Part shown: in pieces, positions 13,569 through 48,470 of the stretch
How positions within the stretch are numbered: position 1 is the stretch's first letter
Layout of the letters: every line of letters starts with the position of its first letter
Source of the DNA: a virus
Lineage: Duplodnaviria; Caudoviricetes
Virus record (IMG/VR): IMGVR_UViG_3300013426_000028
Location: 31,643 to 95,642 of that record
DNA: 64,000 nt
Reading direction: 5' to 3' (one strand)
Notes under the pieces: generated by a model
What the model was told of the DNA's origin: nothing
Databases searched by the model: none
What the model saw: only the letters and a program-made list of their open reading frames with translations
Made by a program: the position numbers and the translations under genes

Positions 13569-13949
13569 ATGCTAATACCAAAGACCCCCAAATCCTTCAA
13601 AAACCCCGATGTCATCGGCATAAAATCGAATAAAAGTAATATTTTATTTGATATCTGCATTTCCAAAGATCTTCCAGGATATATAATTTTAAAACCAGCT
13701 CCCTTAGGAACAATCGGATTATATGAGTTTATGCCTATATCTACATTCTTAGTAGTTACGGATAATTCAAATATAACTCACGTGTCAATAGATATGGAAT
13801 ACGTTCCTCACGTACGTATACACACATACACATATACGTATGCAGATACACACACATACGAGGAACCGCTTCCTATATCTCTAAAAGATAAAATTGCACT
13901 ATCTTACATTAAAACTATCTCTCGTAAGAAAAGAAAGGAAAATAATTAA
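13569..13949 (+). CDS. Hypothetical protein containing an alternating RY tract
   Basis: RBS AAGGAGG; coupled to neighbouring genes. Confidence 0.55.
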   Translation: MLIPKTPKSFKNPDVIGIKSNKSNILFDICISKDLPGYIILKPAPLGTIGLYEFMPISTFLVVTDNSNITHVSIDMEYVPHVRIHTYTYTYADTHTYEEPLPISLKDKIALSYIKTISRKKRKENN

Positions 13950-13953
13950 GTCT

Positions 13954-14631
13954 ATGTCTAGTTCAGCAGTACAAAATCAACCAAATAATAATAACAACGA
14001 TCAACCAGTCCGTCACATCAAACGCGGTCAATATAAAGACTACTCTCAACCCCTTAACGGCATGACCCTCGAAGAGTCCAACAAGCTTATCACAGATAAT
14101 CTCGCACTTGTGTTCTGGGTATTAAAAGAGAAGTTTCATTTTGATCCTTCCACGATGCAAGACTATGAAGATGTTGTGTCTCTCGGTATGCAAGGATTAG
14201 TCATCGCAGCGCGTCTCTATAATCCCGCATCAGGCTACAACTTTTCAACCTATGCAACACACTGCATCTCTTCTCAAATTCGCTCAGAGTATTTCCGTCG
14301 TAATCAAACGCTTAAAGCCACCCCCGAATTTGCCCCCGCTTACCTAGATGCCCCCCTCCCTCTTGAGACAGATCATGGCACCAAAAAAACGCTTCTCGAT
14401 CTTCTCCCCGCCTCCCCATCTTCCGACCCTTCCACCACCCAAGACGCCTCAACCATAATGGACTTCATAATCAACAATCCTATTCCAAATAAATCCACTT
14501 TCCTCTCCTACCTTCAAGGAACCCGCATTATAGACATAGCCAAACAAGAGTCCGTCTCTTCCACCGCCATCCAGAACCGCCTTAAAGTTTCCATATCCTA
14601 TCTTCGCTCCATCTTCAACCCTTCTCACTAG
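13954..14631 (+). CDS. Phage sigma70-family factor (FliA/SigF-like regions 2 and 4)
   Basis: DNLALV, EDVVSLGMQGLVIAARLYNPASGYNFSTYATHCI, LDAPL, C-terminal HTH (IIDIAKQESVSSTAIQNR). Confidence 0.85.
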   Translation: MSSSAVQNQPNNNNNDQPVRHIKRGQYKDYSQPLNGMTLEESNKLITDNLALVFWVLKEKFHFDPSTMQDYEDVVSLGMQGLVIAARLYNPASGYNFSTYATHCISSQIRSEYFRRNQTLKATPEFAPAYLDAPLPLETDHGTKKTLLDLLPASPSSDPSTTQDASTIMDFIINNPIPNKSTFLSYLQGTRIIDIAKQESVSSTAIQNRLKVSISYLRSIFNPSH

Positions 14632-16549: not shown

Positions 16550-16574
16550 AGATAATGTAAAGGAGTGTGATAAT

Positions 16575-18504: not shown

Positions 18505-18594
18505 TTGACTTATTTTTATATTCCTGTATACTTATTAGTGTAAAGGGGGAAAGGAAATGAACCTCCGAAGTACCCCTTACAAGTTCTTTGAAAA
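18505..18594 (+). promoter_or_regulatory. sigmaA promoter followed by boxB-like hairpin and rrn-type boxA
   Basis: TTGACT-16bp-TATACT; GTAAAGGGG/CCCCTTAC stem; AGTTCTTTGAAAA at 18582-18594. Confidence 0.75.
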
Positions 18595-19340
18595 ATCAAT
18601 ATCAGTCCATTATCATTTTGGATAAAAAAGAATTCATCACAGTGACGACGTCATAAAAGTACTAACTTAAACTGTAAAAAATAATCTGACAGTATAAACG
18701 AGGCGTCGGTACCGTGATGAACTCTTTTAAAAGCTAGTACGGAACTTGGCCAAATCCCGCTGATACTATTAAAATAACATTTATCATGTTTTCTCCAACC
18801 TATATTTAAATGAACCTTATCGGTTATTTTAATATCAAGGGAAATTGATGATGCAATGCAATACGCTATTAACCAAAATAATCAGCATAACTCAGTGAAT
18901 CCCCAATTCACTTCCCGCACTACTTTCCAAAAGATTCATTCAACCCATCCCCTTAACAGGGATGCTATGAGGGCTCTGTTTAGAAGATCCAATAGGAACA
19001 GTTATTTATATCTACTTATAAATAATTAAACTCCTTATGGTCCCTCTTTAAATGTGCAAATTTATTAATCCCTTCTTCAGAGCTTTCATAGGGTCCTTGT
19101 AAGGCCCAATTTTAGTTTTTATAGATGGACTAGGTAGACAAATTAGGTAGACAAAGAGGACGCCTGTTTTGGACAGACAGGTTTCCTTGAAGAGCAGAGA
19201 TCAGAACACCACACCACCTTCTAACCTGAAAGTATTTGATCAGTACCTTTTCTATCTCTGCTCCTTAAGGCAACTTATTTACCTTAGCTCACACCGTATT
19301 CACCACTTTTCCTCCTGGTAGTACGGTGTTTTCGTTTTCT
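18539..19340 (+). ncRNA. Putative long structured non-coding RNA (~800 nt)
   Basis: No ORF; many long stems (AAAAGAATTCATCAC/GTGATGAACTCTTTT, TATTAAAATAAC/GTTATTTTAATA, GAGCAGAGAT/ATCTCTGCTC); own promoter and boxA; terminal hairpin 19291-19329 followed by a T-rich tail. Confidence 0.65.
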
Positions 19341-20166: not shown

Positions 20167-20244
20167 TTACTTTCGGCCCACTCCAGTCATGCAGCAAAAC
20201 AAATATACTGCACAAACAATGAAACTTAACATAAGTCCATTCAT
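20167..20244 (-). CDS. 25-aa hydrophobic peptide, type I toxin-like (not in ORF track)
   Basis: AAAGGAGGTGAG RBS; MNGLMLSFIVCAVYLFCCMTGVGRK; anti-SD sequence just after the stop. Confidence 0.6.
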   Translation of the reverse strand: MNGLMLSFIVCAVYLFCCMTGVGRK

Positions 20245-20300
20245 TATCTACTCACCTCCTTTCCAATATATTGTAACACATAAACTGTGTAATACAATCA

Positions 20301-21026: not shown

Positions 21027-21133
21027 AAGTTTTCCTCCTAATACTTTTATTTGTTCCTATTTGATTAATACCATTATACCACAAGTGTTGTCAGCACACA
21101 AGTGGTATAATGATTTTGTTTAATTAATTTGAA

Positions 21134-21400
21134 CTACCATTCACGATAATATTTTGTGTATGAAGTATTAGGATAAAGCTTAGAATCTTCTGCTTCTTCA
21201 CATTCGGTAACAGTAATTTCAACATGATGAGTATGACATCTTGTTTCATCTGCCATTACTTCATCTACTTTCTTCTTAAGAGCATCGGATACTTTTGAAA
21301 AGTTATCCATAGGTTCTGTTACTCTGAACTCAAGAGTTGGTTCGTTCATTTCATCACAACTAACAATTTTACAACTTCCAATATAAACAATTTTTCTCAT
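21134..21400 (-). CDS. Hypothetical protein
   Basis: RBS. Confidence 0.75.
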   Translation of the reverse strand: MRKIVYIGSCKIVSCDEMNEPTLEFRVTEPMDNFSKVSDALKKKVDEVMADETRCHTHHVEITVTECEEAEDSKLYPNTSYTKYYREW

Positions 21401-21421
21401 TTTTATTTTTCCTCCTATTGT

Positions 21422-21700
21422 TTATTTATTAAGATATACTTTTTTGTCATTATAGCCTAGATCTTCAATAATCTCTGGTAAATGTTCTGTTCCGAATCCT
21501 AATGATTCATAATTGTTAAACCCTGCGACTTCGTCCATTTGAAGTTGTTCGTGCCATACATTAAATATGTGAGCGTGATTGCCCTTGTCACAGACACAAC
21601 AAGACCAACCTTCTTCTCTTCCCATATATTGTCCTGTCCAGACATCTCCAAATGCATCTTTTACCTTGTACCAGTGGCCTTTAATAAATTTGCTTTTCAT
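21422..21700 (-). CDS. Hypothetical protein
   Basis: RBS. Confidence 0.75.
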   Translation of the reverse strand: MKSKFIKGHWYKVKDAFGDVWTGQYMGREEGWSCCVCDKGNHAHIFNVWHEQLQMDEVAGFNNYESLGFGTEHLPEIIEDLGYNDKKVYLNK

Positions 21701-21761
21701 AACATATTTCCTCCTTTGTTTTAGTTATGATAGACTGTTCCTATTGAATTTTAAATTTTAA

Positions 21762-22535
21762 TTATTTAATAATACGAATCTTAAGTTGTTCTGGATATGA
21801 TATACCTGCTACACTTAATACATCATAACAAATTTCTATGAATGATAAATCTTTATATTCTTCATCGAACATACAAGCTCCACCATCATCTTCTTTCAAT
21901 TTGTTTTTCCATATTTCTATATTCTCTTCTGTTATTTTATCTTGTCTTTCGGGATTATTTTCATACACCTCATAATAAGCGTATGATTCATATCCTTCCT
22001 CATCATCTTCTTCACTTAAATCTGAAGTTCCTTCACAAATATGAAAAATCCAATGTTCATGTTCATAATCATTAGAATCTCCTACAGCTATCCAGAAATC
22101 TGTTTTAGTATTTGGACGTCCTTCAATTTTCATCTGAGATAATTTTTTCATATTTTCTTGTTCTTTATAGACATCATTTATATCCACATTAAATGCTTGA
22201 TGAGCAATCAATTCAAGCCAATCAATATAATATGTTTGAATATTTTGATTATTTTTACATTCTTCTAAAAGTTCTGCGAATGATTTACTATAAACATCTT
22301 GTAAACCATAAATTTCATTTAAGTCATCAAGAATATAATTATCATAATATATTTCTAATCTATCTAATACAGCTGCTGTATTATCAAAACGATCCTTTTC
22401 GATTTTACCAAGATTAGCACCTTGTAAATCTTCTAAACTGTAATATTGTATTCCTTCTACTTCTTCCTGTTTGATTAATTCGAAGTCCATATCTGATAAC
22501 AACATAGCACAAATTTTTGCATAATTCTTTTTCAT
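21762..22535 (-). CDS. Acidic hypothetical protein
   Basis: 257 aa, RBS. Confidence 0.8.
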   Translation of the reverse strand: MKKNYAKICAMLLSDMDFELIKQEEVEGIQYYSLEDLQGANLGKIEKDRFDNTAAVLDRLEIYYDNYILDDLNEIYGLQDVYSKSFAELLEECKNNQNIQTYYIDWLELIAHQAFNVDINDVYKEQENMKKLSQMKIEGRPNTKTDFWIAVGDSNDYEHEHWIFHICEGTSDLSEEDDEEGYESYAYYEVYENNPERQDKITEENIEIWKNKLKEDDGGACMFDEEYKDLSFIEICYDVLSVAGISYPEQLKIRIIK

Positions 22536-22599
22536 ACCTTATTTCCTCCTTTGTATGATTTAATAAACGACTGTTCCTATTTAATTTTTAAATTCTTGT

Positions 22600-22737
22600 T
22601 TATCTTATATTTAACAATAAATACAAAATTAATGTTAAAAGTACAAGAAAAACTGAATATCCTTCTCTTTTTGCCTGTTTACATATAAAATATATTACAG
22701 CACCGAAAAAGACCAATAAGAAAATTGCAACTTCCAT
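22600..22737 (-). CDS. 45-aa 2-TM membrane peptide
   Basis: ATG 22737 behind AAAGGAGG. Confidence 0.65.
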   Translation of the reverse strand: MEVAIFLLVFFGAVIYFICKQAKREGYSVFLVLLTLILYLLLNIR

Positions 22738-22763
22738 ATTGCACGTCCCTCCTTTCTTTTTAA

Positions 22764-22850
22764 TTATTGAGGTGATAATCCACACCAAAGCACGAAAAAC
22801 AAAAGTAATAATAAAGCTAAAACTAAATAAGTATAATCTTCATTACTCAT
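22764..22850 (-). CDS. 28-aa single-TM peptide (not in ORF track)
   Basis: AAAGGAG RBS; MSNEDYTYLVLALLLLLFFVLWCGLSPQ. Confidence 0.6.
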   Translation of the reverse strand: MSNEDYTYLVLALLLLLFFVLWCGLSPQ

Positions 22851-22871
22851 AATATTTTCTCCTTTCTTTTA

Positions 22872-23501
22872 TTAATGTTGATGGAAGAAAGTCATTTGAC
22901 CTAACATCATCTTCCAACAATTTTTACAAGTCTTACAACTTCCTGGACATTGATATCCGCCTGTTGGTACATTTGCTTTAAATTCAGATGATTTTTTGAA
23001 TTCGACATATGTAACAGGAAGTAAATATTTATTCTTCACTGTTTTATTATATTCTTCATCCCACATACTTAAAACAATTTTAAGATTTACAGGAAGACTT
23101 TCAATGCCATGTTTGTCAATCCATTCATTGATTAATTCCCATTTCTTAGTAAATGCTAAGAATGTTGTTTGAGGACAAGCTAACGCAACTCTGACCATAC
23201 CGTCTAAATATTGTTCGTCAACTATATCTCCTGATGAATGCCATCTGAAATATTTATATGTAACATCGTCATTGTTTAAATATTTAATAACCTCATCAAA
23301 GAACGCTACTTTATCTTCATTATATGAATTGTAATTATCCATATGAGATTTTTTAACGTTTGGATATAAATGAGTTCCTCTACGAGCGTAGCAAAGTTTT
23401 GCACAAGGTGCATTTCTTCTACAAGTGATGATTGGTGGAAGATTTAAGGTTGGAACCTTATCTCCTAATTTACTATTTGATAAACTGATGTGTACTAACA
23501 T
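22872..23501 (-). CDS. Gp88-like Cys-rich phage protein
   Basis: NSKLG, TC....PC...CYA, YFRWHSSGDI, FTKK, CPGSCKTCKNCW, terminal H. Confidence 0.8.
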   Translation of the reverse strand: MLVHISLSNSKLGDKVPTLNLPPIITCRRNAPCAKLCYARRGTHLYPNVKKSHMDNYNSYNEDKVAFFDEVIKYLNNDDVTYKYFRWHSSGDIVDEQYLDGMVRVALACPQTTFLAFTKKWELINEWIDKHGIESLPVNLKIVLSMWDEEYNKTVKNKYLLPVTYVEFKKSSEFKANVPTGGYQCPGSCKTCKNCWKMMLGQMTFFHQH

Positions 23502-23576
23502 AACATTTTTCCTCCTTATATAAAATTTTGTTATGAATCGACTCGACTGTTCCTATTTAATTTTTAATTTATATGT

Positions 23577-24401
23577 TTATTCTATTAAAGAATAATACTC
23601 TATATGTCCTTCTTTGTCAATAAACTTAATACGATATTTGCTAATATTAACTAATTTTGTAACTTCTTCTGCAAATGTTCTAAAATCATCTTCTGAATAA
23701 GCATAATTTTCAGGCATAAATACATCTCGGTAATATTGATATAATTTTTGATCTTTAGATTCATCAGCCTCTATTACATATTTTTTATCATTATTGTCAT
23801 CATCTTTTTTATCGAATTCACCGTAATTTTCTTCATATTCAAATTGGTCTAAAATATAATTTACTCCAAAATAAGAAACATACGCTTCGTGATGTTCTGT
23901 GTCAATAGTAATTTCAACATCACCTTCTGACCATGCTTGTGTTTCGTTCATATCTTTATCAAAGATGCCAATTAAACCATCATTTCTGTCATAAGTGAAT
24001 TCTCCATCTTCAGCCATTCTATTTTCAATAAGTTTTAATGCTTCGTCAGATAACCCGATTTCTATTTTAAGATAATTATAAAAATTCTGACAAATAGGTC
24101 CTCGTAAATTTTCTGGAATATGATTTCCATTATGTAAATTATTGTCTTCACTAAATTGTTGCCAATATCCTTCATAAGTGATATTGGTTCTTTTAGCAAA
24201 TCTCAAGAAAGCTTCTATGGCAATCTGTTTAGCATTTGCTTTTGGAAATTTTTCTATCATCTTATTCATTAAATATAATATAATAAGAGTATTAACCGCA
24301 GCACTGTCTGTATAGGCTGACCAGTGTTGATACATATTTGCAACTCTTTCTTCTGTTTTTCCATCATAAACTGTAATAACTAATCTTTGTCCCATAATCA
24401 T
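23577..24401 (-). CDS. Hypothetical protein (MGQRL...YQHWSAYT family)
   Basis: 274-aa ORF with RBS. Confidence 0.8.
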   Translation of the reverse strand: MIMGQRLVITVYDGKTEERVANMYQHWSAYTDSAAVNTLIILYLMNKMIEKFPKANAKQIAIEAFLRFAKRTNITYEGYWQQFSEDNNLHNGNHIPENLRGPICQNFYNYLKIEIGLSDEALKLIENRMAEDGEFTYDRNDGLIGIFDKDMNETQAWSEGDVEITIDTEHHEAYVSYFGVNYILDQFEYEENYGEFDKKDDDNNDKKYVIEADESKDQKLYQYYRDVFMPENYAYSEDDFRTFAEEVTKLVNISKYRIKFIDKEGHIEYYSLIE

Positions 24402-24467
24402 TTTCCTCTTTTCTTTTAAATTTTTGGGAAGCCTACATGGCTTTGTTCCTATTTAATTTTAACATTT

Positions 24468-24767
24468 TTATTTCAATAGTTCAAGAATTCTTTGCTTATA
24501 TTCTGATTCTTTACACCATTGATTTGGCCCACCACGAAAATCTGTCAACGATTCTGCTGTTCTGTACATTGCTAAACCATTTACTGGTTCTGTTGTGATG
24601 TAAACAATCTTTCCATTATCTTCGTTTTGAATAAAGCCAATACATCCAACTTTTTGATAGCAAGTAACATCATCACGCAAATGAAATGTTAGATTTTTAC
24701 AATCTCTAAACATATATTTGATAGCACGTGTAGATTTTCCTTTGTTTGGTAATAAATAATTTTTCAT
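24468..24767 (-). CDS. Conserved phage hypothetical protein
   Basis: GCIGFI...MYRTA...DFRGGPNQW. Confidence 0.75.
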   Translation of the reverse strand: MKNYLLPNKGKSTRAIKYMFRDCKNLTFHLRDDVTCYQKVGCIGFIQNEDNGKIVYITTEPVNGLAMYRTAESLTDFRGGPNQWCKESEYKQRILELLK

Positions 24768-24769
24768 CT

Positions 24770-25684
24770 TTATTTTCCTCCTTTCTTTTCTATTTCAACT
24801 TGGTTTAAAATTTCTTCTAAATCAATTTGATTCAATAAATAAGGGCCTTTTCTTAATTTAACATAAGATTTTAAATCCTTTATTACAGGTAAATTATACG
24901 TTGCTTCACCTATATTTTGTACTTCTTCGAAGTGTCTTATTGTGGCTGTATCAACACTTATATTAATACCACTTTCGTATGCTTCAAAATGATATAATTT
25001 ATTTTTATAAACGAATAAGATGAACGCACATCCCCAAGCCCAATGAGAAGGTGAAGAAATATCTCGAATTAAAGTCATATTATTTATTGTATTTTCGGTA
25101 AAATAACATTTGAGTCTATTTCTTTTATATTCGCTATATGCTTCTTGATTTATCATTTTTTCTTTTTGATAATTATAATCAATTATCAAACTTAAATATT
25201 TATTCAGTAATTCAAGAGTTTCTTTGACATCTGACAACATTTGACTATATGAATTTAAAGGAAAATAATCAAACGAAAAATCTTTTAAATTAATAAATAT
25301 TTCGTTATGTTTTGGAGCAGGTGTTCTGATATATAGCCAAAATCCTTCTTTATTGTGTCTTTCTATTGTTGCCATATAAATAGATTCTAAAATAGGATAT
25401 TGTTCTATTAAACGAGAAGTTAATCTAAAATCTATAATTTGATTAGTTTCTATTTGCTTTTTTAATTTTTGTACTTGACCACTATTAATAATTTGCTCTT
25501 CTAATTTCATAATTTCTTTTGCTAATATTTGATTAGTTTTAAGTACTTCTAACTCGCTTTGTTCAAAATCATTGTATTTTAGGTCTATGTTTTTGATTGC
25601 TTCGCATTTTTCTATTTCGCAAGTTTCTTTAAAGTGTGTTATTTCTTCATAAGTTTGTTTTGTAATTTTATCATATAAATTCAT
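24770..25684 (-). CDS. Hypothetical protein
   Basis: 304 aa, RBS. Confidence 0.75.
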   Translation of the reverse strand: MNLYDKITKQTYEEITHFKETCEIEKCEAIKNIDLKYNDFEQSELEVLKTNQILAKEIMKLEEQIINSGQVQKLKKQIETNQIIDFRLTSRLIEQYPILESIYMATIERHNKEGFWLYIRTPAPKHNEIFINLKDFSFDYFPLNSYSQMLSDVKETLELLNKYLSLIIDYNYQKEKMINQEAYSEYKRNRLKCYFTENTINNMTLIRDISSPSHWAWGCAFILFVYKNKLYHFEAYESGINISVDTATIRHFEEVQNIGEATYNLPVIKDLKSYVKLRKGPYLLNQIDLEEILNQVEIEKKGGK

Positions 25685-25708
25685 AACTTTTTCCTCCTTT
25701 CTTTAGAA

Positions 25709-25996
25709 CTAGTCAGCATAACCTGCCGCTAGTTCTAATAAATACCATTTATCCATTTGATCAATCTCTTCCCAGGATTTTTCTCTTCTTAAAGCGTGTA
25801 ACATTTCAACATAGCAATCAGGATTAAGATTATTAGAATCTTTTAATCCTAAATAACTTGCGTGACTGCATAATTGTTCAAATTCTTCGTCATCAATACT
25901 GTTATCAAATAAACATTGTACTGAATTAGCAATGGTAATATCCCATACACTAATATTCTTTTCGTTTAAGACTTCTAATTTTTGTTTGTAATTCAT
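25709..25996 (-). CDS. Hypothetical protein
   Basis: RBS. Confidence 0.75.
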   Translation of the reverse strand: MNYKQKLEVLNEKNISVWDITIANSVQCLFDNSIDDEEFEQLCSHASYLGLKDSNNLNPDCYVEMLHALRREKSWEEIDQMDKWYLLELAAGYAD

Positions 25997-26067
25997 AATT
26001 ATTTTCCTCCTATATATGAATTTAACGACTGTTCCTATTGATTTATGTATTAAAATGAATAATAAAA

Positions 26068-26529
26068 TTATTTACTTAATAAGCGACGTATTCTTCCTAT
26101 TACTTGCGGTATCAATCTATCATTGATATATGCAGCAGAATATTTATTTTGAACATCATCTATTTTTGCTTTTTCTGTAATGTCAGAATATCCTTGTTCA
26201 AAAAGAAGCGAAACTTGTCTTAATTTATTATACGTTGATATGTAGTCATATAATTCATCAAGTTCTTCTTCTGTTAAAGGTGTTGCTTCCATTGTTTTTC
26301 TAAATTCTGTTTGTGTAAATAATCCTTGAGAATAATAATCAGGATATCCTTCAGGACGACCTAATATGACCATATTGAGATAGTCCCAATGTGAAGATTT
26401 TTCATCTCGTCCTTTAACAAATTGAGGTTCTCTTAACCAATATCTGCGTCCAATTTTATTACGACCTAATAAATAATGATTGACTCCTAAATAAACTTTT
26501 GTTTGTTTTAACATTTTTCTTTTACGCAT
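26068..26529 (-). CDS. Hypothetical protein, paralogue of 28145..28633
   Basis: YLLG...G..YWL..P, .GYS..TE.AKID, IN..L.P. Confidence 0.75.
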   Translation of the reverse strand: MRKRKMLKQTKVYLGVNHYLLGRNKIGRRYWLREPQFVKGRDEKSSHWDYLNMVILGRPEGYPDYYSQGLFTQTEFRKTMEATPLTEEELDELYDYISTYNKLRQVSLLFEQGYSDITEKAKIDDVQNKYSAAYINDRLIPQVIGRIRRLLSK

Positions 26530-26565
26530 ATTTTTTTCCTCCTATTTAATTAATTAAAAGAGAGA

Positions 26566-27039
26566 TTATCCGAAGACAATCTCTCCAAATAAAGCCCATT
26601 GGATAATGAAATCTCCACTTTCAGCATCAGCATAACAACCAAGATAATCTTCAATATCATCATATTTAGAGTGGGACATTTCTTGTCCAAGACCTTCTAA
26701 CACTCTATTGAGAGTCAACTTCCAAGGATCTCCTTCGACTCCTTCTTCATTATTTAAATCTGTTACACCTTCTTCTTCTGCATCTTCAAATTCAATATAT
26801 CCTCCATTCCATAGAATATAAGCAGCTATTTCTACAGTAGAACAATATTCATCTTCAGGATGTTCTGCTTTATATTTCTTTTCCCATTTAGTCCAATTTT
26901 CTGAAGCGTTGTCAAGCATTGCCCAATAACCAATTCCACCTTCAAGTGCAATAGCCATAACATCACACAAATTGTCTTGTGTAATTTCAACTGTTTTTGT
27001 AATAGTGATTTTTTTAGTTTCTACGTTTTTCATAATCAT
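26566..27039 (-). CDS. Conserved phage hypothetical protein
   Basis: ALEGGIGYWA...DA..GDFIIQWALFGEIVFG. Confidence 0.8.
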   Translation of the reverse strand: MIMKNVETKKITITKTVEITQDNLCDVMAIALEGGIGYWAMLDNASENWTKWEKKYKAEHPEDEYCSTVEIAAYILWNGGYIEFEDAEEEGVTDLNNEEGVEGDPWKLTLNRVLEGLGQEMSHSKYDDIEDYLGCYADAESGDFIIQWALFGEIVFG

Positions 27040-27085
27040 TTTTCCTCGATTCTTTGATTTTTGTTCCTATTTAGTTTTAATGTTC

Positions 27086-27358
27086 CTATTTAATTTGTTC
27101 TTTTAGTTTTTTGATTTCTCTTTGCATACGATCCATATTGTCAACTACACCGTTTGTGTATTCAACAATTTTTCTTTCGTTATATTCTTCTAAATCTTCA
27201 TTACGGCAATAAGGACAAACTCCTCTTGTACCATAATGATAAGCGTGATATGGATCATAAAGACCATATTCATCTTCGTAACAGAATCGTTCTTCTTCAA
27301 GATCATCTTCTGTCATAAAATGTTCACAATTTGGACAAAAATATATCATTTTGTTCAC
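27086..27358 (-). CDS. Zinc-ribbon protein
   Basis: CPNC...CPYC. Confidence 0.7.
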   Translation of the reverse strand: MNKMIYFCPNCEHFMTEDDLEEERFCYEDEYGLYDPYHAYHYGTRGVCPYCRNEDLEEYNERKIVEYTNGVVDNMDRMQREIKKLKEQIK

Positions 27359-27367
27359 CGCCTTTCT

Positions 27368-27826
27368 TTATTTAACAGCAAGAATATCTTTAATATTTTT
27401 ATTAAAGACTTCTGGAGTTTCTTTCTTAACCCATTGAGAAGATTGAGTAACTCCCATAGCTTCTTCTTTTGTTATTGGATTACCATCAAAATAATAACCA
27501 ATAACTTTTGGACGATGAAGGAAGATTTTTGATGTTGTCATTCGGATATATGTTTCACCTTTATTTTCAATCATCCATCTATTTTTCCATTCTCCCCAAG
27601 GCAAGACTTCTTTAATTTCACCTACCATTCCAATTGCTTGTCTTTTTTCAATAACAGATTTAATATTAGAATATCTAACACCAAATCTTACTACAGATTG
27701 TACAACTTTTGTAATAACGTGTCCTTTAAAATTTTTGTTTGGAGTAATGTTTGTTTGATATGTTACTTGAACATAAGCTCCTTGATGTTTGTTTGAAATA
27801 ATATTTAATAATTCTTGTTTTTCCAT
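27368..27826 (-). CDS. Hypothetical protein
   Basis: RFGVRYSNIKSV...LPWGEW. Confidence 0.75.
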   Translation of the reverse strand: MEKQELLNIISNKHQGAYVQVTYQTNITPNKNFKGHVITKVVQSVVRFGVRYSNIKSVIEKRQAIGMVGEIKEVLPWGEWKNRWMIENKGETYIRMTTSKIFLHRPKVIGYYFDGNPITKEEAMGVTQSSQWVKKETPEVFNKNIKDILAVK

Positions 27827-27853
27827 GATAATTTTTCCTCTCTTTCTATATAT

Positions 27854-27882
27854 ATTATATCATGTTTAATAATGTTTGTAAA
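27854..27882 (-). promoter_or_regulatory. sigmaA-type promoter
   Basis: TTTACA-17bp-TATAAT with TG extension. Confidence 0.7.
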
Positions 27883-27890
27883 GACAAAGA

Positions 27891-28148
27891 CTATCCTAAA
27901 TAGATAGCCTTGTCTTTGTCGTCTAAAATCATTAAGTCGTGATTTATGGCTTCATAATATTCTCTGGTTGAAGAACCTTCTTCTTTTTCAATACTTTTAA
28001 TTGTTTCTCCTGAATAATATAAAGCATGATATCCGTTGGCTTCTTCATCATCTGTGACAAATATCACATAATCGCCGTGACCTTTTCGAATTTCTTCTCT
28101 AAGATATTTATATAAATCTTCGACTGTTAACGCTCCACATTTTGTCAT
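27891..28148 (-). CDS. Hypothetical protein
   Basis: TDDEEANGYH motif; ATGA overlap. Confidence 0.75.
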   Translation of the reverse strand: MTKCGALTVEDLYKYLREEIRKGHGDYVIFVTDDEEANGYHALYYSGETIKSIEKEEGSSTREYYEAINHDLMILDDKDKAIYLG

Positions 28149-28633
28149 TTTCTTTCACCTCCTAACAAATTGTCAATACGTTCGAATATTGCTGGTAACA
28201 AAGTTTTATTAATACAATTCGCAAAATCTTCGTTTTTTAATACATCAATTTTTGCTGCTTCTGTTTGATGACTATAACCTCGATGTAATATTTCTGCTGT
28301 TGTTATTAAATTATAACACGACATCATATAATCAATTAATTGATATTTTTCATTTTCATTTAAAGTAGTTTCTACAAAAAACTTATCAAATGAGTATATG
28401 GCGAAGCCTGTCGTATTATTTAAAAATAAATAATTAAAATGAGTATAAAAATCAATCTCTCTGCTTAATTCAGAATTACGATTGTTAGATAAAATATCTA
28501 CACAGCCACAATTCCAATACTCATGCCAATCGCACACCCATTCAGGTGCTTGTAGCCAATATTTTTTGCCTTCTTTATCCTTTCCTAATAAATAAAACTT
28601 TTTTCCACGCCAATAAATTACTTTCTTTTTCAT
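28145..28633 (-). CDS. Hypothetical protein, paralogue of 26068..26529
   Basis: ATG 28633 behind AAGGAGGTG. Confidence 0.75.
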   Translation of the reverse strand: MKKKVIYWRGKKFYLLGKDKEGKKYWLQAPEWVCDWHEYWNCGCVDILSNNRNSELSREIDFYTHFNYLFLNNTTGFAIYSFDKFFVETTLNENEKYQLIDYMMSCYNLITTAEILHRGYSHQTEAAKIDVLKNEDFANCINKTLLPAIFERIDNLLGGERK

Positions 28634-28652
28634 AATTTTCACCTCCTTCCTT

Positions 28653-31094
28653 TTATCCTCTACAACAAAGAGCACCATATTGAGAATGAATTGATGTTTC
28701 ATCAACATTTCCTGTTTCTTGTGCCCATTGTAATAAAGCTTGCACAATTTCAGCATCAGGATTACTATTACATAATCCGTGAACTTGTCTTATAGAAAAC
28801 TTATTATCAATAGAACCATTTTGAGAAAGTTCTATTGTAAAATATGGTTCAGACAAATTACTATTTTTTCTGAAAAACAATATTGCTGTATGTTTGTTTG
28901 CAAACGTTTCTTGATAAGAGCTTACACAATGATGTAAGATTTTTCCTTCTGTGGATAAATCTTCTACTTTTTCAGGAACTAAAATAGTAAATTCATCATT
29001 GCTCCAAGCAAATTTCTTTTGTAATATTTCCTTCCAAGGTTTATATCTTTCATTTAATAGTTTGGATTGGTCAGCACTGATTATTTGTTTAAAAGCATCA
29101 TAATTTTCCGACATAAAATTATGAAGATAATGAATTTTCATTTTAAGATCTGATTGTAGAATTGCTTGTTTTAAACAATAAACAGAAATTTGTGGAAAAT
29201 GTTTTGTAACACATTCACAAACATATGACAAATTATTATTTTTAAAATCTTCTTTTGTTGTTGGAAAATCAATTGGAATTAATTTAATTTTTTCCTTCAT
29301 TTGATAATAATCATATAATTCTGATAATTTTGCCACGTCGGATGCACTAATTTTATTTAATATTCGAATAATTTCAGAATCTGAAAATCCTTGTTCTGGA
29401 ATTATAATGTTATAAAATGTCATAATATTAAGTATCAAATCTTTTACATATAAATGATGACCTTTGTCACAAATCAGATTTTTAAACATTTCTAACGTTA
29501 TATATTTACCATATTTTTTAGCAATTTGTTTTTTAGATAATGTTTTTCTATTTGAAGCAATTCTACAATATCCATAATTATAACAAGAAGGATAATTTGT
29601 TATGGACATGTTTCCTTTTAAAATATTAATCAAATAATAAAATAATTCTGCATGAAAATCAGTACAAACATAATTTTTATCGAAAATTGTTGCATCTTTT
29701 ATAAAATCTTCGTAATTTTTCTTACTTAAATAACATTGTTCATACATTTTAGTCTTTTGTATATCACAAGCAGTATCAAATAATAATTGTGTCACTCGCG
29801 ACGCTGTACGAGAGTTAGCAATATTTGTTGAATAAAACAATTTTCTTGCCTCTATAAATTCATTAACGTATGTAGAACCATAATGCTTAATAAAACTTTC
29901 ATATGTCATATCTTTATAGTATAAAGGATTAAACAAAGGCTCTAATATTTTTTGATATATTAATTCTCCAATAGTAAAATCTTTATTATAATAAGCATAA
30001 GAATAATGACCTTTTTTACAATAAGAGTTATTAATGCTATACGAAGACAAAATTTCTGCAAAACTATTATTTGGAAACATTGAATTAAAAATGTAATTTA
30101 AACCATGAATTTCTTGAATCTCAGAAATATGTTCTTGAATACAATTTATAATTTGTTGAAAACTCTGTACATCTGAATAATTAACACTATTGAAAGTTTG
30201 ATATTTATTGGTTTTATCAATTGTTAATTCTCCTTGTGGAGAAGCGAGAAAACATTCGCAGTTTCCTGTCTTTTTGTCATATACGTGTAATATTATATTT
30301 CTCCAATAGTTTTTATTATACATTAAAAGATACACATTATCTTGATCAGATTCAATATGTAATATATTGTTTGATTCAATCAATTCTTTTATTTTGTTTT
30401 GAAACATGTCTTGGTATGTTAACAATTTTGATTTTTGAATTGTTTTATGTGCAAATTTCGTTTTGTTTGGATGTTTAATACATTCAATAAATGTTGCAAT
30501 AGGAAACATTTCATTATAATCTACAGAGTGATTTATTTGCCACCAATTTTTTAATACAGTTAAATCAAAACCTTGTTCCTTCAATATTTTTGTTGAAAAA
30601 GGTGATAAACGTCCAAATGGATATTTATCACCTTGATAAGAATCTATTGTATTTATATTTACAAATCTAATATCTTGGGTATTGGATGCATTACTAATTT
30701 TCCAAGATCTTTCTTTTGGTTCAACAAAACGTTTGTTTGAATCATACATTTCCCAATCATTTGTAATATAAAACATAGGTTCATTACGATATAAATAAGG
30801 AAATGCCTTTCTATTTGTAACATAGGAGTTAAACAAATATATGCCAACACCCTTTTTATTATTAATAGTACATTTTTCAATGAAAATATAGTTTTTAGAA
30901 GCATTTTTAATAGGAAATAATAAAGCATAATCTTTAAAATCTTCTAATACTAGTTGTCCTTGTTTATCATAAATTTTTCCTGCTGGTGTTACTGTATACA
31001 TTGGTAATTGGCATAATTGTTCGTGTGTTTCAACTTCTACCTCTCTTAAATTAGGCATGTTGTTAAATGTGTTTACTTTAATTTCTTTATTCAT
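28653..31094 (-). CDS. Large protein with C-terminal PcfJ-like domain
   Basis: EGKILHHCVSSY...ILFFRK...PYFTIEL...IRQVHGLCN; start at ATG 31094 behind GGAGG. Confidence 0.8.
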   Translation of the reverse strand: MNKEIKVNTFNNMPNLREVEVETHEQLCQLPMYTVTPAGKIYDKQGQLVLEDFKDYALLFPIKNASKNYIFIEKCTINNKKGVGIYLFNSYVTNRKAFPYLYRNEPMFYITNDWEMYDSNKRFVEPKERSWKISNASNTQDIRFVNINTIDSYQGDKYPFGRLSPFSTKILKEQGFDLTVLKNWWQINHSVDYNEMFPIATFIECIKHPNKTKFAHKTIQKSKLLTYQDMFQNKIKELIESNNILHIESDQDNVYLLMYNKNYWRNIILHVYDKKTGNCECFLASPQGELTIDKTNKYQTFNSVNYSDVQSFQQIINCIQEHISEIQEIHGLNYIFNSMFPNNSFAEILSSYSINNSYCKKGHYSYAYYNKDFTIGELIYQKILEPLFNPLYYKDMTYESFIKHYGSTYVNEFIEARKLFYSTNIANSRTASRVTQLLFDTACDIQKTKMYEQCYLSKKNYEDFIKDATIFDKNYVCTDFHAELFYYLINILKGNMSITNYPSCYNYGYCRIASNRKTLSKKQIAKKYGKYITLEMFKNLICDKGHHLYVKDLILNIMTFYNIIIPEQGFSDSEIIRILNKISASDVAKLSELYDYYQMKEKIKLIPIDFPTTKEDFKNNNLSYVCECVTKHFPQISVYCLKQAILQSDLKMKIHYLHNFMSENYDAFKQIISADQSKLLNERYKPWKEILQKKFAWSNDEFTILVPEKVEDLSTEGKILHHCVSSYQETFANKHTAILFFRKNSNLSEPYFTIELSQNGSIDNKFSIRQVHGLCNSNPDAEIVQALLQWAQETGNVDETSIHSQYGALCCRG

Positions 31095-31190
31095 AATTTT
31101 TCCTCCAATTTTTCCTTTTTCAAGGGATAAGAATATTTTTATGGAGAAAATATTCAAAACCTTGTTCCTATTTAATTTTCAATTTAAAGA

Positions 31191-31757
31191 TTAATAATCA
31201 CAGTCTTCGTCTTCATCATAATCGTCATAATCATCTTCATCATAATCTTCGCAACATTCCATTCTTTCCTCCTGAAGAGCTTTTTCAACTCTTTCTTTTA
31301 ATATGACATCTAAATCTTCTTGAGATAATTTAGATTTTAGATCATTACAATTTGCAATTTCTTTACCTTCGTGGTCATAAGCAATTTTACCTTTGACTAG
31401 AATTTCAATTCCATTATCTAACTTAAAGCTATGATCTGGAATCATTTCTGCTTCTACGAATTGTTGAGCAATATTACATTGCATATAGACTTGAGACATA
31501 TTCATTCCCATTGAAGCATAAAGATTTAACATCTTTTCTTTATCTTCTGCGGAGCTTGCAAATCCAATTAACATTTCTGTTCTAGGATCATAAACTGGAA
31601 TTAATTCACCTGCATCAAGCATTTTAATAGTATCTAAAATACCTTTTTGAGGCATTTCTTCATATTTTTTTAATAAAGCTTCTTTAGCAGCTTTCTTTTC
31701 TGCTTCTTTTCTTTCTTCTGCTGCTCTTTTTAAATTTTCTAATACTGTGTTTTTCAT
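31191..31757 (-). CDS. Hypothetical protein with acidic tail
   Basis: RBS. Confidence 0.75.
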   Translation of the reverse strand: MKNTVLENLKRAAEERKEAEKKAAKEALLKKYEEMPQKGILDTIKMLDAGELIPVYDPRTEMLIGFASSAEDKEKMLNLYASMGMNMSQVYMQCNIAQQFVEAEMIPDHSFKLDNGIEILVKGKIAYDHEGKEIANCNDLKSKLSQEDLDVILKERVEKALQEERMECCEDYDEDDYDDYDEDEDCDY

Positions 31758-31823
31758 AACTGTTTTCCTCCTATAATATAAATGTTATGATGTTCCTATT
31801 GAGTTATTGTTCCTATTTAACGA

Positions 31824-32030
31824 TTACGCTACTATTTCATATAGTTTAATATCGTAATTCCATTCCTCTTTGCCTTCTGCTACCATTATAGCCATATGAT
31901 AACATTCTAATTGAAAGTATGAAATTTGTCTAATAAATTTATGACACTCTTCAACAGAGTTATAATATTTAGTTTGTAATAAATATGCATCTGTTTCTTC
32001 TTCGTAAATTTCTACAAAATATCTTTTCAT
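31824..32030 (-). CDS. Hypothetical protein
   Basis: RBS. Confidence 0.7.
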   Translation of the reverse strand: MKRYFVEIYEEETDAYLLQTKYYNSVEECHKFIRQISYFQLECYHMAIMVAEGKEEWNYDIKLYEIVA

Positions 32031-32031
32031 C

Positions 32032-32475
32032 TTATTTCACCTCCTTTATTTTTGATTTAGTAACAACTGATTTTAAACAACCAGGTGTATTTAATAATAA
32101 TTGATGTAATTCTCTTTTACTAAGTTCATCTTCTTCTTCATTAATTAATTGCTTGCCTTTATTAGTTATTACTCTAATTTCATAATGACTTGGTACAACA
32201 GGAGAATCGTGATGTGTTTCTTCTATAATGATAATTCCATCATCTCTAATGAATACTCTTGGACCATCTTCTGTTTCGAATAGACACATACGACTTATCA
32301 TTCCCCATAATGATGTATTATAAATAATCATACCTCCTTCTTGTTTTCCGTGCCATGACATAAAATAACCCGTTCCTAAAAAGGTCATTTTACCTTTTGT
32401 CTCTTCTAATTCTATTGATAAATCTTTTGCTTCTTCTAATGTAATTTCTGTTAAATTTAATTCTTTGTTATCCAT
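32032..32475 (-). CDS. Hypothetical protein
   Basis: RBS. Confidence 0.7.
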   Translation of the reverse strand: MDNKELNLTEITLEEAKDLSIELEETKGKMTFLGTGYFMSWHGKQEGGMIIYNTSLWGMISRMCLFETEDGPRVFIRDDGIIIIEETHHDSPVVPSHYEIRVITNKGKQLINEEEDELSKRELHQLLLNTPGCLKSVVTKSKIKEVK

Positions 32476-32477
32476 AA

Positions 32478-32753
32478 TTAATTTTCCTCTTTCTTTAAAT
32501 AGATAATGTTTGTCACCTGTCTATCAGGTAGGCTGTTCCTATATTGTCCGTATATATAATATTTTTTCATTTTTTCAGCAAGTTGAATTTGATTCATATT
32601 TCTATCAAAGAAATAATAATCATCTTTTGGTTTATTATATTTATCCTTTTTTGTATGTATTCGGACCGCATACTGGACATTCATATAATTAAGATATTGC
32701 TGAAAGGATCTGATTACAACAGATCCTCTTTTCATCTCCATTCCATTAATCAC
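32478..32753 (-). CDS. Hypothetical protein
   Basis: RBS AGGAGGTG. Confidence 0.65.
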   Translation of the reverse strand: MINGMEMKRGSVVIRSFQQYLNYMNVQYAVRIHTKKDKYNKPKDDYYFFDRNMNQIQLAEKMKKYYIYGQYRNSLPDRQVTNIIYLKKEEN

Positions 32754-32756
32754 CTC

Positions 32757-33267: not shown

Positions 33268-33744
33268 TTACATCACCTCCTTTCCAAATACGCCACTAAG
33301 CATTATGTCAACTTTTTGACCAATTTGTTTTTCACAAGTTGGAGAAAGTTGAATATTTAAATCATCTTCTTCTTTTTGAAGATTTTCAATAATCTTAGTA
33401 GTTTCTGTTCTTTTTACTTGAAGTCTAGCCTCTCTAAGTTCATTAGCTGATGGCAAAAAGTCAGGTCTACCATTATTTTTAAACTCCTCTAAATAAGCTG
33501 GAGCTAAATAAGTGGTATCAACAAGATTTGCTGCCATCCATCTGCCTTCTCGATCTTTCTTCAAATTAAATGCAACTTGAACTCCCACCTTTGCATAACA
33601 ACGATGAGACATTAATTGTTTAAAATGAAAAAACAGATTTTCGTCAAATTTGCCATTACCCCATTGTGGAGTAATATAGCCATAACCTCCTTTCGTATTA
33701 ACTGATAAGATTGTTCCGATAAACATTTGATTTTGATGTAACAT
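33268..33744 (-). CDS. Cold-shock (OB-fold) domain protein with C-terminal extension
   Basis: RNP1-like KGGYGYI, RNP2-like LFFHF, GVQVAF, GRWMAANL. Confidence 0.8.
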   Translation of the reverse strand: MLHQNQMFIGTILSVNTKGGYGYITPQWGNGKFDENLFFHFKQLMSHRCYAKVGVQVAFNLKKDREGRWMAANLVDTTYLAPAYLEEFKNNGRPDFLPSANELREARLQVKRTETTKIIENLQKEEDDLNIQLSPTCEKQIGQKVDIMLSGVFGKEVM

Positions 33745-39792: not shown

Positions 39793-39840
39793 ACGTTTTG
39801 AGTTTCAAGGATTACGTTAAACCTATGATGATTTTAATCA

Positions 39841-45123: not shown

Positions 45124-45140
45124 TTTGAGAAGAACCTCCT
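44853..45140 (-). ncRNA. omegaRNA (HEARO-like) scaffold with 5' guide
   Basis: CTCACT/AGTGAG first stem, TAGTCTAAG, CTACGTT, GGATG..CCAAGTC..CTCT, TTAAACAG, AACATTGACGA directly upstream of iscB. Confidence 0.88.
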
Positions 45141-48100: not shown

Positions 48101-48470
48101 CGTGAAAGTCACTTTTCTTTTTGTCGATGCAAATGTTAATGATGTCCTTAACAAATAGAAGTTTTGTGATGTGATGGTTTAATACGTTTGCTTCTTTGTA
48201 GAACCCTTGTTTTTTATAATAATGCATTTTGTCTCTAAAGCGTGCAATGTAATTAAATATTTCTCTATGGTCACGATAATCGTTATGCATATGTCGGAGT
48301 TGTCTGAATACCATATTGTCTCCGATTGAAACAATGTTAGTGTCTTTCATTCCTTGCGACATTGTATAGTTAATTTCGTAGAACCCTGATTCCTTGTTAT
48401 AATTGTCAGGTTTCACGACCATAGAGGCTGGTAATTTGAAAATTTGATATAAGTTTTGTATTACTGGCAT
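45116..48470 (-). CDS. Single-subunit phage RNA polymerase (SPbeta YonO-like, RdRP-like double-psi barrel); join(48470..46803,46393..45116), 981 aa
   Basis: SGQIR, DGQGLI, RSAFVKG, RSP; catalytic ADYD|GD restored in frame by intron removal; EIDRIKG, KPYFFRY. Confidence 0.9.
46394..46802 (-). ncRNA. Group I intron (409 nt, ORF-less) in the RNAP gene
   Basis: Exon ends in U; P1 ACUAUGAU/GUCAUAGU with U.G at the splice site; R ACGACUA, S AAGAUAUAGUCU; P3 GUUGGU/GCCAAC; terminal G. Confidence 0.93.

What the first reader, a model, noticed from the sequence alone, without database searches (positions are those of the whole stretch)
21052..32542. AATAGGAACA box repeated about 12 times between stop codons and the next RBS
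Seen: strand-specific, non-palindromic (T/C)AAATAGGAACA(GTC) at + coordinates 21052, 21736, 22572, 23548, 24444, 26030, 27062, 27081, 31163, 31791, 31808 and a near-copy at 32534. It usually follows an A/T tract and lies about 20-70 nt before an ATG. Twice it is in tandem (17 and 19 nt apart), which suits a protein-binding or cleavage site better than a promoter. It mimics the local RBS context AATAGGAGGA and contains a GGA core as in CsrA sites. I did not see it in the left arm or late region. Alternatives: promoter for a phage RNAP or sigma factor, antitermination site, endoribonuclease site, or recombination site for gene-cassette shuffling.
Basis: partly seen in the sequence, partly recalled or inferred. 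Interest (0 to 1): 0.8.

Follow-up and report, generated by a model that had tools for sequence, protein, structure and literature searches.

The report
Phage-specific promoter-like box heading gene cassettes
A 10-15 letter DNA word sits, unchanged, in front of about ten small accessory genes of an uncultured gut phage and is most likely a start signal for a phage-directed transcription machinery, possibly its unusual YonO-type RNA polymerase, whose promoter has never been defined; no transcript data exist to prove it.

Summary
AATAGGAACA occurs 12 times in the window against 0.17 expected. Eleven copies plus the near-copy TATAGGAACA lie on the minus strand at 21052-32543. All are in sense orientation, 22-71 nt before start codons, inside a minus-strand gene block that begins with a YonO-type RNA polymerase gene. 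A weight matrix separates 13 sites (16 bits or more) from the background. In a close relative (Hadza-gut MAG contig, proteins 75-98% identical) all 13 sites are kept. The 10-nt core shows 0 changes in 120 positions, while flanking intergenic DNA changed at 6.6% (P about 3e-4). The box travels with the downstream gene at mosaic joints. It replaces the sigma-A consensus promoters used elsewhere in the genome. It has no -35/-10 partner, no RNA fold and no Rfam match. In the relative, one copy ends 7 nt before a Shine-Dalgarno sequence. Best reading: a compact, single-element, phage-specific promoter whose start site lies in or next to the box. It is possibly read by the YonO-type polymerase. That assignment is weakened because five clade relatives with a 62-66% identical polymerase have no such box. 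An RNA-level leader site remains a real rival. The scan has noted similar candidate boxes in other YonO-encoding phages (unchecked notes).

The parts
32534..32543 (-). Box copy 1 (variant TATAGGAACA), 58 nt before the start of gene 32032-32475, overlapping the 3' end of ORF 32478-32741
   Evidence: 16.0 bits. The same variant is conserved in L147 at 8075.
31791..31817 (-). Tandem pair of boxes (31808-31817 and 31791-31800) before gene 31191-31757
   Evidence: Conserved in L147 (9276, 9293). Homology between G000 and L147 starts exactly at the upstream box, and L147 and metagenome relatives carry about 450-550 extra nt there.
31163..31172 (-). Box before the PcfJ-like gene (28653-31157), followed by a 9-bp leader hairpin
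   Evidence: Conserved in L147 at 9915 while 4-5 of the 13 nt upstream changed.
27062..27090 (-). Tandem pair of boxes (27081-27090 and 27062-27071) before gene 26566-27039. The TAG of the upstream box is the stop codon of ORF 27086-27358.
   Evidence: Conserved in L147 (14001, 14020).
26030..26039 (-). Box before gene 25709-25996
   Evidence: Intergenic region identical in L147. Relatives lacking gene 26068-26529 have the joint 2-11 nt upstream of this box.
24444..24453 (-). Box before gene 23577-24401, followed directly by a short hairpin
23548..23557 (-). Box before the GP88-family gene 22872-23501
22572..22581 (-). Box before gene 21762-22535
21736..21745 (-). Box before gene 21422-21700
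   Evidence: Two metagenome contigs lose homology at 21749/21750.
21052..21061 (-). Box before the last long gene of the block (20301-21026). It lies 11 nt downstream of a sigma-A-like extended -10 (TGGTATAAT) that is embedded in an inverted repeat.
   Evidence: In L147 a 6-nt deletion leaves only 7 nt between the box and the SD.
18991..19000 (+). Single opposite-strand copy (CAATAGGAACAGT) inside a 1.9-kb non-coding stretch
   Evidence: (22.3 bits). Conserved in L147 as TATAGGAACA.
45116..48470 (-). YonO-type two-barrel RNA polymerase gene at the head of the block. Exon 1 is 46803-48470, a group I intron lies at 46394-46802, and exon 2 runs from about 46393 down to 45116. It is the candidate reader of the box.
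13894..14631 (+). Phage sigma-70-family gene (regions 2 and 4), the alternative candidate reader
33268..33744 (-). Cold-shock-domain protein gene just upstream of the box-bearing genes, the candidate reader under the RNA-level rival
   Evidence: No homolog in the box-less relative G001.

Best explanation
The box is a compact, single-element, phage-specific promoter. It is about 15 nt long: an A/T-rich lead-in plus the invariant ATAGGAACA. Transcription would start inside the box or within a few nucleotides of its 3' end. Each copy belongs to the 5' end of a small accessory-gene cassette, giving about ten units in 12 kb, in the distal third of a 29-kb minus-strand block. Host sigma-A RNA polymerase would transcribe the head of the block, including the phage's YonO-type single-chain RNA polymerase gene. 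A phage-directed machinery, most likely that polymerase acting without a sigma factor, would then start at the boxes. Because the same word precedes many unrelated genes, it also serves as a short homology patch at which cassettes are gained, lost or joined, sometimes leaving two boxes in tandem. Shown: the motif, its strand, its position, its selective conservation, its linkage to the downstream gene, and its complementarity with sigma-A promoters. Inferred: that it is a promoter, where transcription starts, and which enzyme reads it. About 0.65 for 'promoter of some kind'. About 0.35-0.4 for 'read by the YonO-type polymerase'.
For: 1. Enrichment and strand bias: 12 copies against 0.17 expected; 12 of 13 sites are on the coding strand of one block. 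It is the top non-RBS over-represented word in the genome and in the block's intergenic DNA.
2. Purifying selection on the core only: 0 real changes in 120 core positions between G000 and L147, against 42 of 633 in the surrounding intergenic DNA (P=2.6e-4). The 3 nt downstream changed at 19% and the 7 nt upstream at 7%.
3. It is a 5' element of the downstream gene. Homology with L147 begins exactly at the box at 31808. Metagenome relatives break or insert at 21749/50, 26041/50, 27091 and 31817/20, and one variant that replaces the downstream gene also loses the box.
4. Complementary distribution. Near-consensus TTGAC(T/A)-N16-TATAAT promoters head 14 gaps of the + block and 2 gaps at the head of the minus block. 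The distal block has boxes in 9 of 13 gaps and only one sigma-A-like site.
5. Single-element architecture. Nothing is conserved 16-18 nt away on either side. In L147 one box ends 7 nt before the SD, so a -35 role is excluded and a -10 role is strained.
6. No RNA structure and no Rfam family. The box is predicted unpaired.
7. The phage encodes an apparently functional YonO-type RNAP upstream on the same strand. Its catalytic DADYD|GD motif is restored by a group I intron. This is a T7-like layout. Other phage two-barrel single-chain RNAPs use short promoter motifs of their own (P23-45, bioRxiv 10.1101/2022.12.01.518664).
Against: No transcript 5' ends are available, and no RNA run holds this DNA. 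Five clade relatives with a 62-66% identical RNAP (G001-G005) have no box. G001 has no other repeated intergenic motif on the RNAP strand, so the box does not co-vary with the polymerase. In SPbeta, YonO uses one promoter for the late structural operon (PMC5467207). Here the structural genes have no box. No box-like sequence is found in the SPbeta yonN-yonK start-site region. No terminators precede the boxes, so read-through from upstream could express these genes without internal promoters. The purine after the box (10 of 12 copies) is not conserved in the relative. Leaders downstream of the box are also well conserved (4.2% changed), as an RNA-level function would predict.
Confidence: 0.5

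Rival explanations
1. RNA-level leader element. The block is transcribed as long polycistronic RNA, and the unpaired AAUAGGAACA in each leader is bound by a phage RNA-binding protein or cut by an endoribonuclease. An example of such a binder is the cold-shock-domain protein encoded just upstream, which could melt the start-codon hairpins. This would set translation or stability gene by gene. The same-sense copy in the 18.5-20.3 kb non-coding RNA would act as a decoy.
For: The proximal half of the same block is visibly processed at the RNA level, with a Pistol and a Twister-P5 ribozyme. No terminators precede the boxes. Half of the box-headed genes have a leader hairpin that pairs with the start codon, 5 of 10 against 8 of 123 (p=8e-4). 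Leaders are well conserved. The box is predicted single-stranded. The 21052 copy lies at about +5 of a sigma-A transcript, so it is present in RNA. The CSD gene is absent from box-less G001. The + strand copy lies in a probable sigma-A-driven non-coding RNA.
Against: The distance to the SD or start codon varies from 22 to 71 nt, which is unusual for a translational operator. Ten invariant letters are more than cold-shock domains or CsrA-type proteins usually specify (established knowledge, not tested here). The A/T-rich lead-in and the replacement of sigma-A promoters fit DNA-level initiation better. No known RNA family matches.
Confidence: 0.22
2. Promoter element for host core RNA polymerase redirected by the phage sigma factor (13894-14631), by a host alternative sigma, or by a MotA-like activator.
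For: The phage encodes a sigma-70-family protein with regions 2 and 4. It is conserved in the close relative. Box-less G001 has a different sigma, only 31% identical over 78 aa. GGAAC resembles the -35 elements of ECF-type sigmas, and AGGA resembles that of sigma-H (established knowledge).
Against: A two-domain sigma predicts a bipartite promoter, but no second element is conserved at any fixed spacing. The recurrent CATAAC/CATACA word downstream lies 1-14 nt from the box and instead pairs with the start codon. In L147 one box ends 7 nt before the SD, leaving no room for a spacer plus -10.
Confidence: 0.13
3. DNA site without promoter function. It could be a binding site for a phage regulator or roadblock, or a dedicated recombination site for cassette exchange.
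For: Mosaic joints lie next to boxes. There are tandem copies. The lineage encodes one tyrosine-recombinase-like ORF. One copy lies just downstream of a sigma-A promoter, where a bound protein could repress it.
Against: The box is non-palindromic and has no inverted arms or spacer as in tyrosine-recombinase core sites. Other indels in the block are not at boxes. All copies are co-oriented with transcription and sit upstream of genes. The cassettes have no other promoter.
Confidence: 0.1

Closest known systems
Promoters of phage-encoded two-barrel single-chain RNA polymerases: P23-45 gp96 vRNAP and gp64 nvRNAP (bioRxiv 10.1101/2022.12.01.518664); P_YonO of SPbeta (PMC5467207)
   Same: A phage encoding a non-canonical two-barrel RNAP, with a short phage-specific motif repeated upstream of non-structural genes and no sigma-A hexamers.
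   Different: In P23-45 the motifs were tied to the enzymes by TSS mapping, ChIP-seq and co-occurrence in relatives. Here there are no RNA data and co-occurrence fails, since G001-G005 have the RNAP but no box. SPbeta YonO has one mapped start site, before the late operon, and its promoter sequence is undefined. No box-like sequence was found there.
T7/T3/SP6-type promoters of single-subunit RNAPs
   Same: The RNAP gene lies upstream on the same strand, followed by many near-identical compact promoters. The element is A/T-rich and then ...ATA|GGAACA, compared with ...TATA|GGGAGA. The start site is probably inside the conserved word.
   Different: No T7-like RNAP (PF00940) is present in G000 or its complete relative. 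The candidate enzyme belongs to an unrelated fold family. The structural genes lack the box.
PeSL cassettes of T4-type phages (PMC2839356, PMC4122927)
   Same: A conserved regulatory word flanks small variable genes in a hyperplastic region, and mosaic joints between close relatives fall at that word.
   Different: PeSLs are a sigma-70 early promoter plus a stem-loop terminator. This box has neither hexamers nor a stem-loop.
T4 late promoters (TATAAATA, read by gp55)
   Same: A single short A/T-rich element without a -35.
   Different: This comparison rests on recalled knowledge only. The phage sigma here has a region 4, and the box ends too close to an SD for a standard -10 geometry.

Membership tests
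Promoter of the phage's YonO-type RNA polymerase | Primary transcript 5' ends at or next to the motif, dependent on the polymerase | not testable with these tools
   No RNA run holds this DNA.
Promoter of the phage's YonO-type RNA polymerase | An intact polymerase gene in the same genome | tested here: met
   PF05183 hit. SPbeta yonO E=5e-26. The two ORFs are colinear on phrog_8308. A group I intron restores DADYD|GD.
Promoter of the phage's YonO-type RNA polymerase | Motif co-occurs with the polymerase across relatives | tested here: not met
   It is kept in the relative with a 97% identical RNAP. It is absent from five relatives with a 62-66% identical RNAP, and no substitute motif is found in G001.
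Promoter of the phage's YonO-type RNA polymerase | Sense orientation, intergenic, upstream of genes that lack host-type promoters | tested here: met
Sigma-70-family bipartite promoter (host or phage sigma) | Two conserved elements 16-18 nt apart, with the start about 7 nt after the second | tested here: not met
   No second conserved block. The downstream word has variable spacing. The box ends 7 nt before an SD in L147.
T7-type single-subunit RNAP promoter | A T7-like RNAP (PF00940) is encoded | tested here: not met
   No match in G000 or G006. The tool's controls were also silent, so this is weak evidence. No large ORF in the gene map is unaccounted for.
PeSL mobile regulatory cassette | Sigma-70 early promoter plus stem-loop terminator flanking variable genes | tested here: not met
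   No hexamers and no stem-loop at the boxes. Only the cassette-joint behaviour is shared.
CsrA/RsmA binding site | GGA in a hairpin loop overlapping the SD, with CsrA present | tested here: not met
   The box is unpaired, not in a recurrent hairpin, and 8-55 nt from the SD. No CsrA in the relative's genome.
Self-cleaving ribozyme or other Rfam RNA | Match to a covariance model, or a recurrent structure | tested here: not met
   No match at E of 1 or less over 20800-32800. Fold z-scores range from -1.8 to +1.1.
Site-specific recombination site (attC or tyrosine-recombinase core) | Inverted-repeat arms or a foldable palindrome, and a cognate recombinase | tested here: inconclusive
   The box is non-palindromic. 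One tyrosine-recombinase-like ORF lies 40 kb away in the relative. Joints are at boxes in some cases but not all.

The most novel reading that the evidence does not exclude
The box is the first multi-copy promoter consensus for a YonO-type two-barrel single-chain RNA polymerase. It would be recognised without any sigma factor, with the start site inside ...AAATA|GGAACA, a form convergent with T7-type promoters. Its specificity would be so lineage-bound that relatives with a 65% identical enzyme use a different, low-copy signal.
Probability: 0.35. Interest if true: 0.75.

Novelty: new variant of a known kind. Interest (0 to 1): 0.55.

Why it matters
How YonO-type polymerases find promoters has been open since 2017 (PMC5467207). 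These enzymes are minimal single-chain relatives of cellular RNA polymerases. A 10-nt invariant word present in 13 copies, next to an intact polymerase gene, gives a directly testable template set for in vitro transcription, mutational scanning and reporters. If the word is read instead at the RNA level, it would be a new sequence-specific leader code coupled to start-codon hairpins in a phage operon that also carries ribozymes. Either way, it shows how a short regulatory word organises a hypervariable accessory-gene region into exchangeable cassettes.

Tried and rejected
1. The 834-aa ORF after the box at 31163 was tested as a T7-like RNAP. It is PcfJ-like.
2. megablast of the block against phage records gave no match.
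3. Viral-contig scans with the PcfJ-like protein or its alignment found nothing. Both metagenome scans also found nothing.
The 74-86% identical homologs seen in Logan/ENA could therefore not be fetched.
5. The tandem-box pattern in viral contigs returned more than 118 hits. These are coding Ile-Gly-Thr repeats or unrelated arrays, with no protein similarity to this phage.
6. G001's top word is simply the sigma-A consensus TTGACA-N14-TGCTATAAT. Its second word, GACCCTGA, is a coding Asp-Pro-Glu word.
7. The SPbeta start-site region has no box-like hit. The exact TSS is not recoverable from the paper's text or supplement, which give only the primers.
8. The non-coding stretch at 18.4-20.3 kb was compared with the SPbeta non-coding RNA and with G001. 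No meaningful similarity was found.
9. No shared late-gene motif was found by word counts.
10. Enterocloster phage PMBT24, another YonO phage, has an 18-nt repeated word. It sits beside terminator hairpins on both strands and is not an analogue.
11. No RNA holder was listed among the sequencing runs.
12. Read laying showed only 40 of 1522 substitutions, so box conservation in the four metagenome relatives could be read only around 21052.
13. An IscB guide or target relation was rejected, because the relative lacks IscB but keeps all boxes.
Full report
OBSERVATION

AATAGGAACA occurs 12 times in the 64-kb window, against 0.17 expected. None of 100 shuffles reaches 12. Eleven copies are on the minus strand at exactly the listed coordinates. 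The site at 32534 reads TATAGGAACA. One more exact copy lies on the + strand at 18991.

Aligning the copies shows a longer element, AAtT(a/c)AATAGGAACA. It has an A/T-rich lead-in and a sharp 3' edge, followed by a purine in 10 of 12 copies.

A weight matrix run over the whole 95.6-kb record separates 13 sites (16-27 bits) from everything else. The rest scores 14.2 bits or less, the level reached in simulated sequence. The box is the top non-RBS over-represented word in the genome.

The record is only about 69% complete by CheckV. However, the 138.7-kb contig of a close relative carries the same 13 sites and no others.

CONTEXT

The window belongs to an uncultured phage with 30.7% GC. A 29-kb minus-strand block runs from window 49.0 kb down to 20.3 kb, and everything else is plus-strand.

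The block opens with a YonO-type two-barrel RNA polymerase:
- It matches PF05183.
- It matches SPbeta yonO at E=5e-26.
- Both of its ORFs are colinear on phrog_8308.

The gene is interrupted by a 409-nt group I intron at 46394-46802. There is a weak full-length Rfam hit. The 5' exon ends in U and the intron ends in G. The intron sits inside the catalytic motif, and splicing restores DADYD|GD.

Downstream of the polymerase come:
- an IscB/HEARO element;
- a Twister-P5 and a Pistol ribozyme;
- an AAA ATPase, ClpP, a cold-shock-domain protein and an SprT-like protein;
- the box-bearing genes, which are a PcfJ-like protein, a GP88-family protein and unknowns.

A sigma-70-family gene with regions 2 and 4 lies in the plus-strand replication block.

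WHAT THE BOX IS ATTACHED TO

All 12 minus-strand copies are in sense orientation, 22-71 nt before a start codon. They define about ten units in 12 kb.

The best evidence comes from L147, a fully syntenic contig of a Hadza-gut MAG found with the PcfJ-like alignment. Its proteins are 75-98% identical, and its RNAP is 97% identical.
- All 13 boxes are present at the same places, including both tandem pairs and the opposite-strand copy.
- Across the ten aligned gaps, the 10-nt core shows no real change in 120 positions. The single counted change is a gap-placement artefact.
- The other intergenic positions changed at 42 of 633 (P=2.6e-4).
- The three bases after the box changed at 19%, and the seven bases before it at 7%. 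Selection therefore acts on the core word itself.

Upstream of the box at 31808, the two genomes are unrelated, and homology starts exactly at TTAAATAGGAACA. L147 has about 480 extra nt there. Logan contigs from four animal-gut metagenomes (about 90% identical) show the same insertion point. They also show homology breaks at 21749/50, 26041/50 and 27091. One variant that replaces the downstream gene also loses its box. The listing is truncated.

The box is therefore inherited with the gene downstream of it. It is a 5' element, not a 3' element.

PROMOTER OR RNA ELEMENT

Several points favour a DNA-level start signal.
- Near-consensus host promoters, TTGAC(T/A)-N16-TATAAT, head 14 gaps of the plus block and two gaps at the head of the minus block.
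- The 33-48 kb part of the minus block has neither promoters nor boxes.
- The distal part has boxes in 9 of 13 gaps and a single sigma-A-like site.
- The box is one contiguous element, with nothing conserved 16-18 nt away on either side.
- The recurrent downstream word TCATAAC/TCATACA lies 1-14 nt from the box and pairs with the start codon.
- In L147 a 6-nt deletion leaves 7 nt between one box and its SD. This excludes a -35 role and strains a -10 role. If the box is a promoter, the start is in or next to it, as in promoters of sigma-independent phage polymerases.
- No Rfam family matches at E of 1 or less.
- Folds around the boxes are neither recurrent nor unusually stable, and the box is predicted unpaired.

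Several points favour an RNA-level reading.
- No terminators precede the boxes.
- The same operon uses ribozymes further upstream.
- Leaders are well conserved, with 4.2% changed.
- Half of the box-headed genes have a perfect 6-8 bp stem that sequesters the start codon with the SD in the loop. This is 5 of 10 against 8 of 123 for other genes (p=8e-4).
- The copy at 21052 lies at about +5 of a sigma-A transcript.
- The opposite-strand copy lies in a probable sigma-A-driven non-coding RNA.

WHICH ENZYME

The layout resembles T7: a polymerase gene transcribed by the host, followed by many identical compact signals downstream on the same strand. Other phage two-barrel single-chain polymerases have short promoter motifs of their own (P23-45; bioRxiv 10.1101/2022.12.01.518664). 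The YonO promoter itself is undefined (PMC5467207).

The link is not secured, for these reasons:
- Five clade members with a 62-66% identical polymerase (G001-G005) have no box.
- G001 has no substitute motif above shuffle level on its polymerase strand.
- The SPbeta start-site region contains nothing box-like.
- The structural genes here have no box, whereas YonO drives the late operon in SPbeta.

The complete relative encodes one YonO-type polymerase, one sigma, no T7-like polymerase and no CsrA.

My estimates are:
- a promoter of some kind, about 0.65;
- read by the YonO-type polymerase, about 0.35-0.4;
- an RNA-level site, about 0.2;
- a sigma-dependent element, about 0.13;
- another kind of DNA site, about 0.1.

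COMPARISON AND NOVELTY

Functionally, the closest systems are:
- promoter sets of phage-encoded polymerases (T7-type; P23-45 vRNAP and nvRNAP);
- for cassette behaviour, the PeSL elements of T4-type phages (PMC2839356, PMC4122927).

The box fails the defining tests of PeSL, sigma-70 promoters, T7-type promoters, CsrA sites and Rfam RNAs. Details are in the membership table. It is a new sequence family of a known kind of element. Its possible link to YonO-type polymerases gives it added interest.

Earlier unchecked notes of this scan report different strand-specific boxes in other YonO-encoding phages. I did not verify them, and the one public YonO phage I examined, PMBT24, gave no clear analogue.

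TOOLS

Noticed in passing
window 46394-46802 (-): A 409-nt group I intron (weak full-length Rfam hit RF00028, 19 bits, E=0.055) splits the YonO-type RNAP gene inside its catalytic Asp motif. Exon 1 ends ...SDADYD and exon 2 starts GDIVLSTDNP. The 5' exon ends in U and the intron ends in G. G001 has a gap of similar size at the same place.
   Followed up: partly
window 43614-45123 (-): The IscB-like HNH ORF plus its HEARO RNA (RF02033, 111 bits) is absent from the close relative G006, where the flanking genes are about 150 nt apart. It is therefore a recent insertion in this genome.
   Followed up: partly
leaders of genes starting at 31757, 25996, 23501, 22535, 21700 (-): A leader word TCATAAC/TCATAC/AATTCATA pairs perfectly (6-8 bp) with the start-codon region (GTTATGA and similar), with the SD in a 15-23 nt loop. 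This is found at 5 of 10 box-headed genes against 8 of 123 other genes (Fisher p=8e-4). It may be a translational gate, perhaps opened by the phage cold-shock-domain protein.
   Followed up: partly
window 21062-21110 (-): A sigma-A-like extended -10 promoter (TGGTATAAT) lies inside an inverted repeat (TTATACCAC...GTGGTATAA), 11 nt upstream of the last box. The arms are conserved in L147 while the spacer between them changed, so it looks like an operator-controlled promoter.
   Followed up: no
window 18400-20300 (+): A 1.9-kb stretch without convincing ORFs starts with a near-consensus promoter (TTGACT-N16-TATACT at 18505-18532). It contains the only + strand box (18991). No Rfam match was found, and there is no similarity to the SPbeta yonN-yonK non-coding RNA.
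   Followed up: partly
window 20167-20244 (-): A 25-codon hydrophobic ORF (MNGLMLSFIVCAVYLFCCMTGVGRK) with a perfect SD (AAAGGAGGTGA) follows the last long gene of the minus block. It may be a small membrane peptide or a toxin-like gene.
   Followed up: no
window 39840-39905 and 41026-41075 (-): A Pistol ribozyme (54 bits) and a Twister-P5 ribozyme (45 bits) lie in intergenic gaps of the proximal half of the same operon, which has neither boxes nor sigma-A promoters.
   Followed up: no
plus-strand block, e.g. window 6378-6447, 10555-10630, 12181-12241, 12958-13131, 16215-16574: Host-type promoters in this phage are unusually uniform (TTGACT or TTGACA, a 16-nt spacer, then TATAAT) and head 14 intergenic gaps. 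Relative G001 has an even more rigid TTGACA-N14-TGCTATAAT in 11 or more places.
   Followed up: partly
window 24770-25684 (-); L147 15390-15698: The 304-aa gene is replaced by about 300 nt in L147 and in one metagenome relative. Gene 26068-26529 is missing in two other metagenome relatives. The block is hypervariable in gene content among phages that are about 90% identical.
   Followed up: partly
G006:C1:120254-120778: The relative's 138.7-kb contig carries a tyrosine-recombinase-like ORF in the part that is missing from the 95.6-kb G000 record (CheckV 69% complete).
   Followed up: no
L154/L155 (Enterocloster phage PMBT24) 1080, 5036, 73408, 87074 (+); 2165, 73604 (-): An 18-nt word CTTCAATTCGTAAAGTAAAA is repeated 6 times (0.03 expected). 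Four of the six copies are followed by a terminator-like hairpin. Its function is unknown.
   Followed up: no
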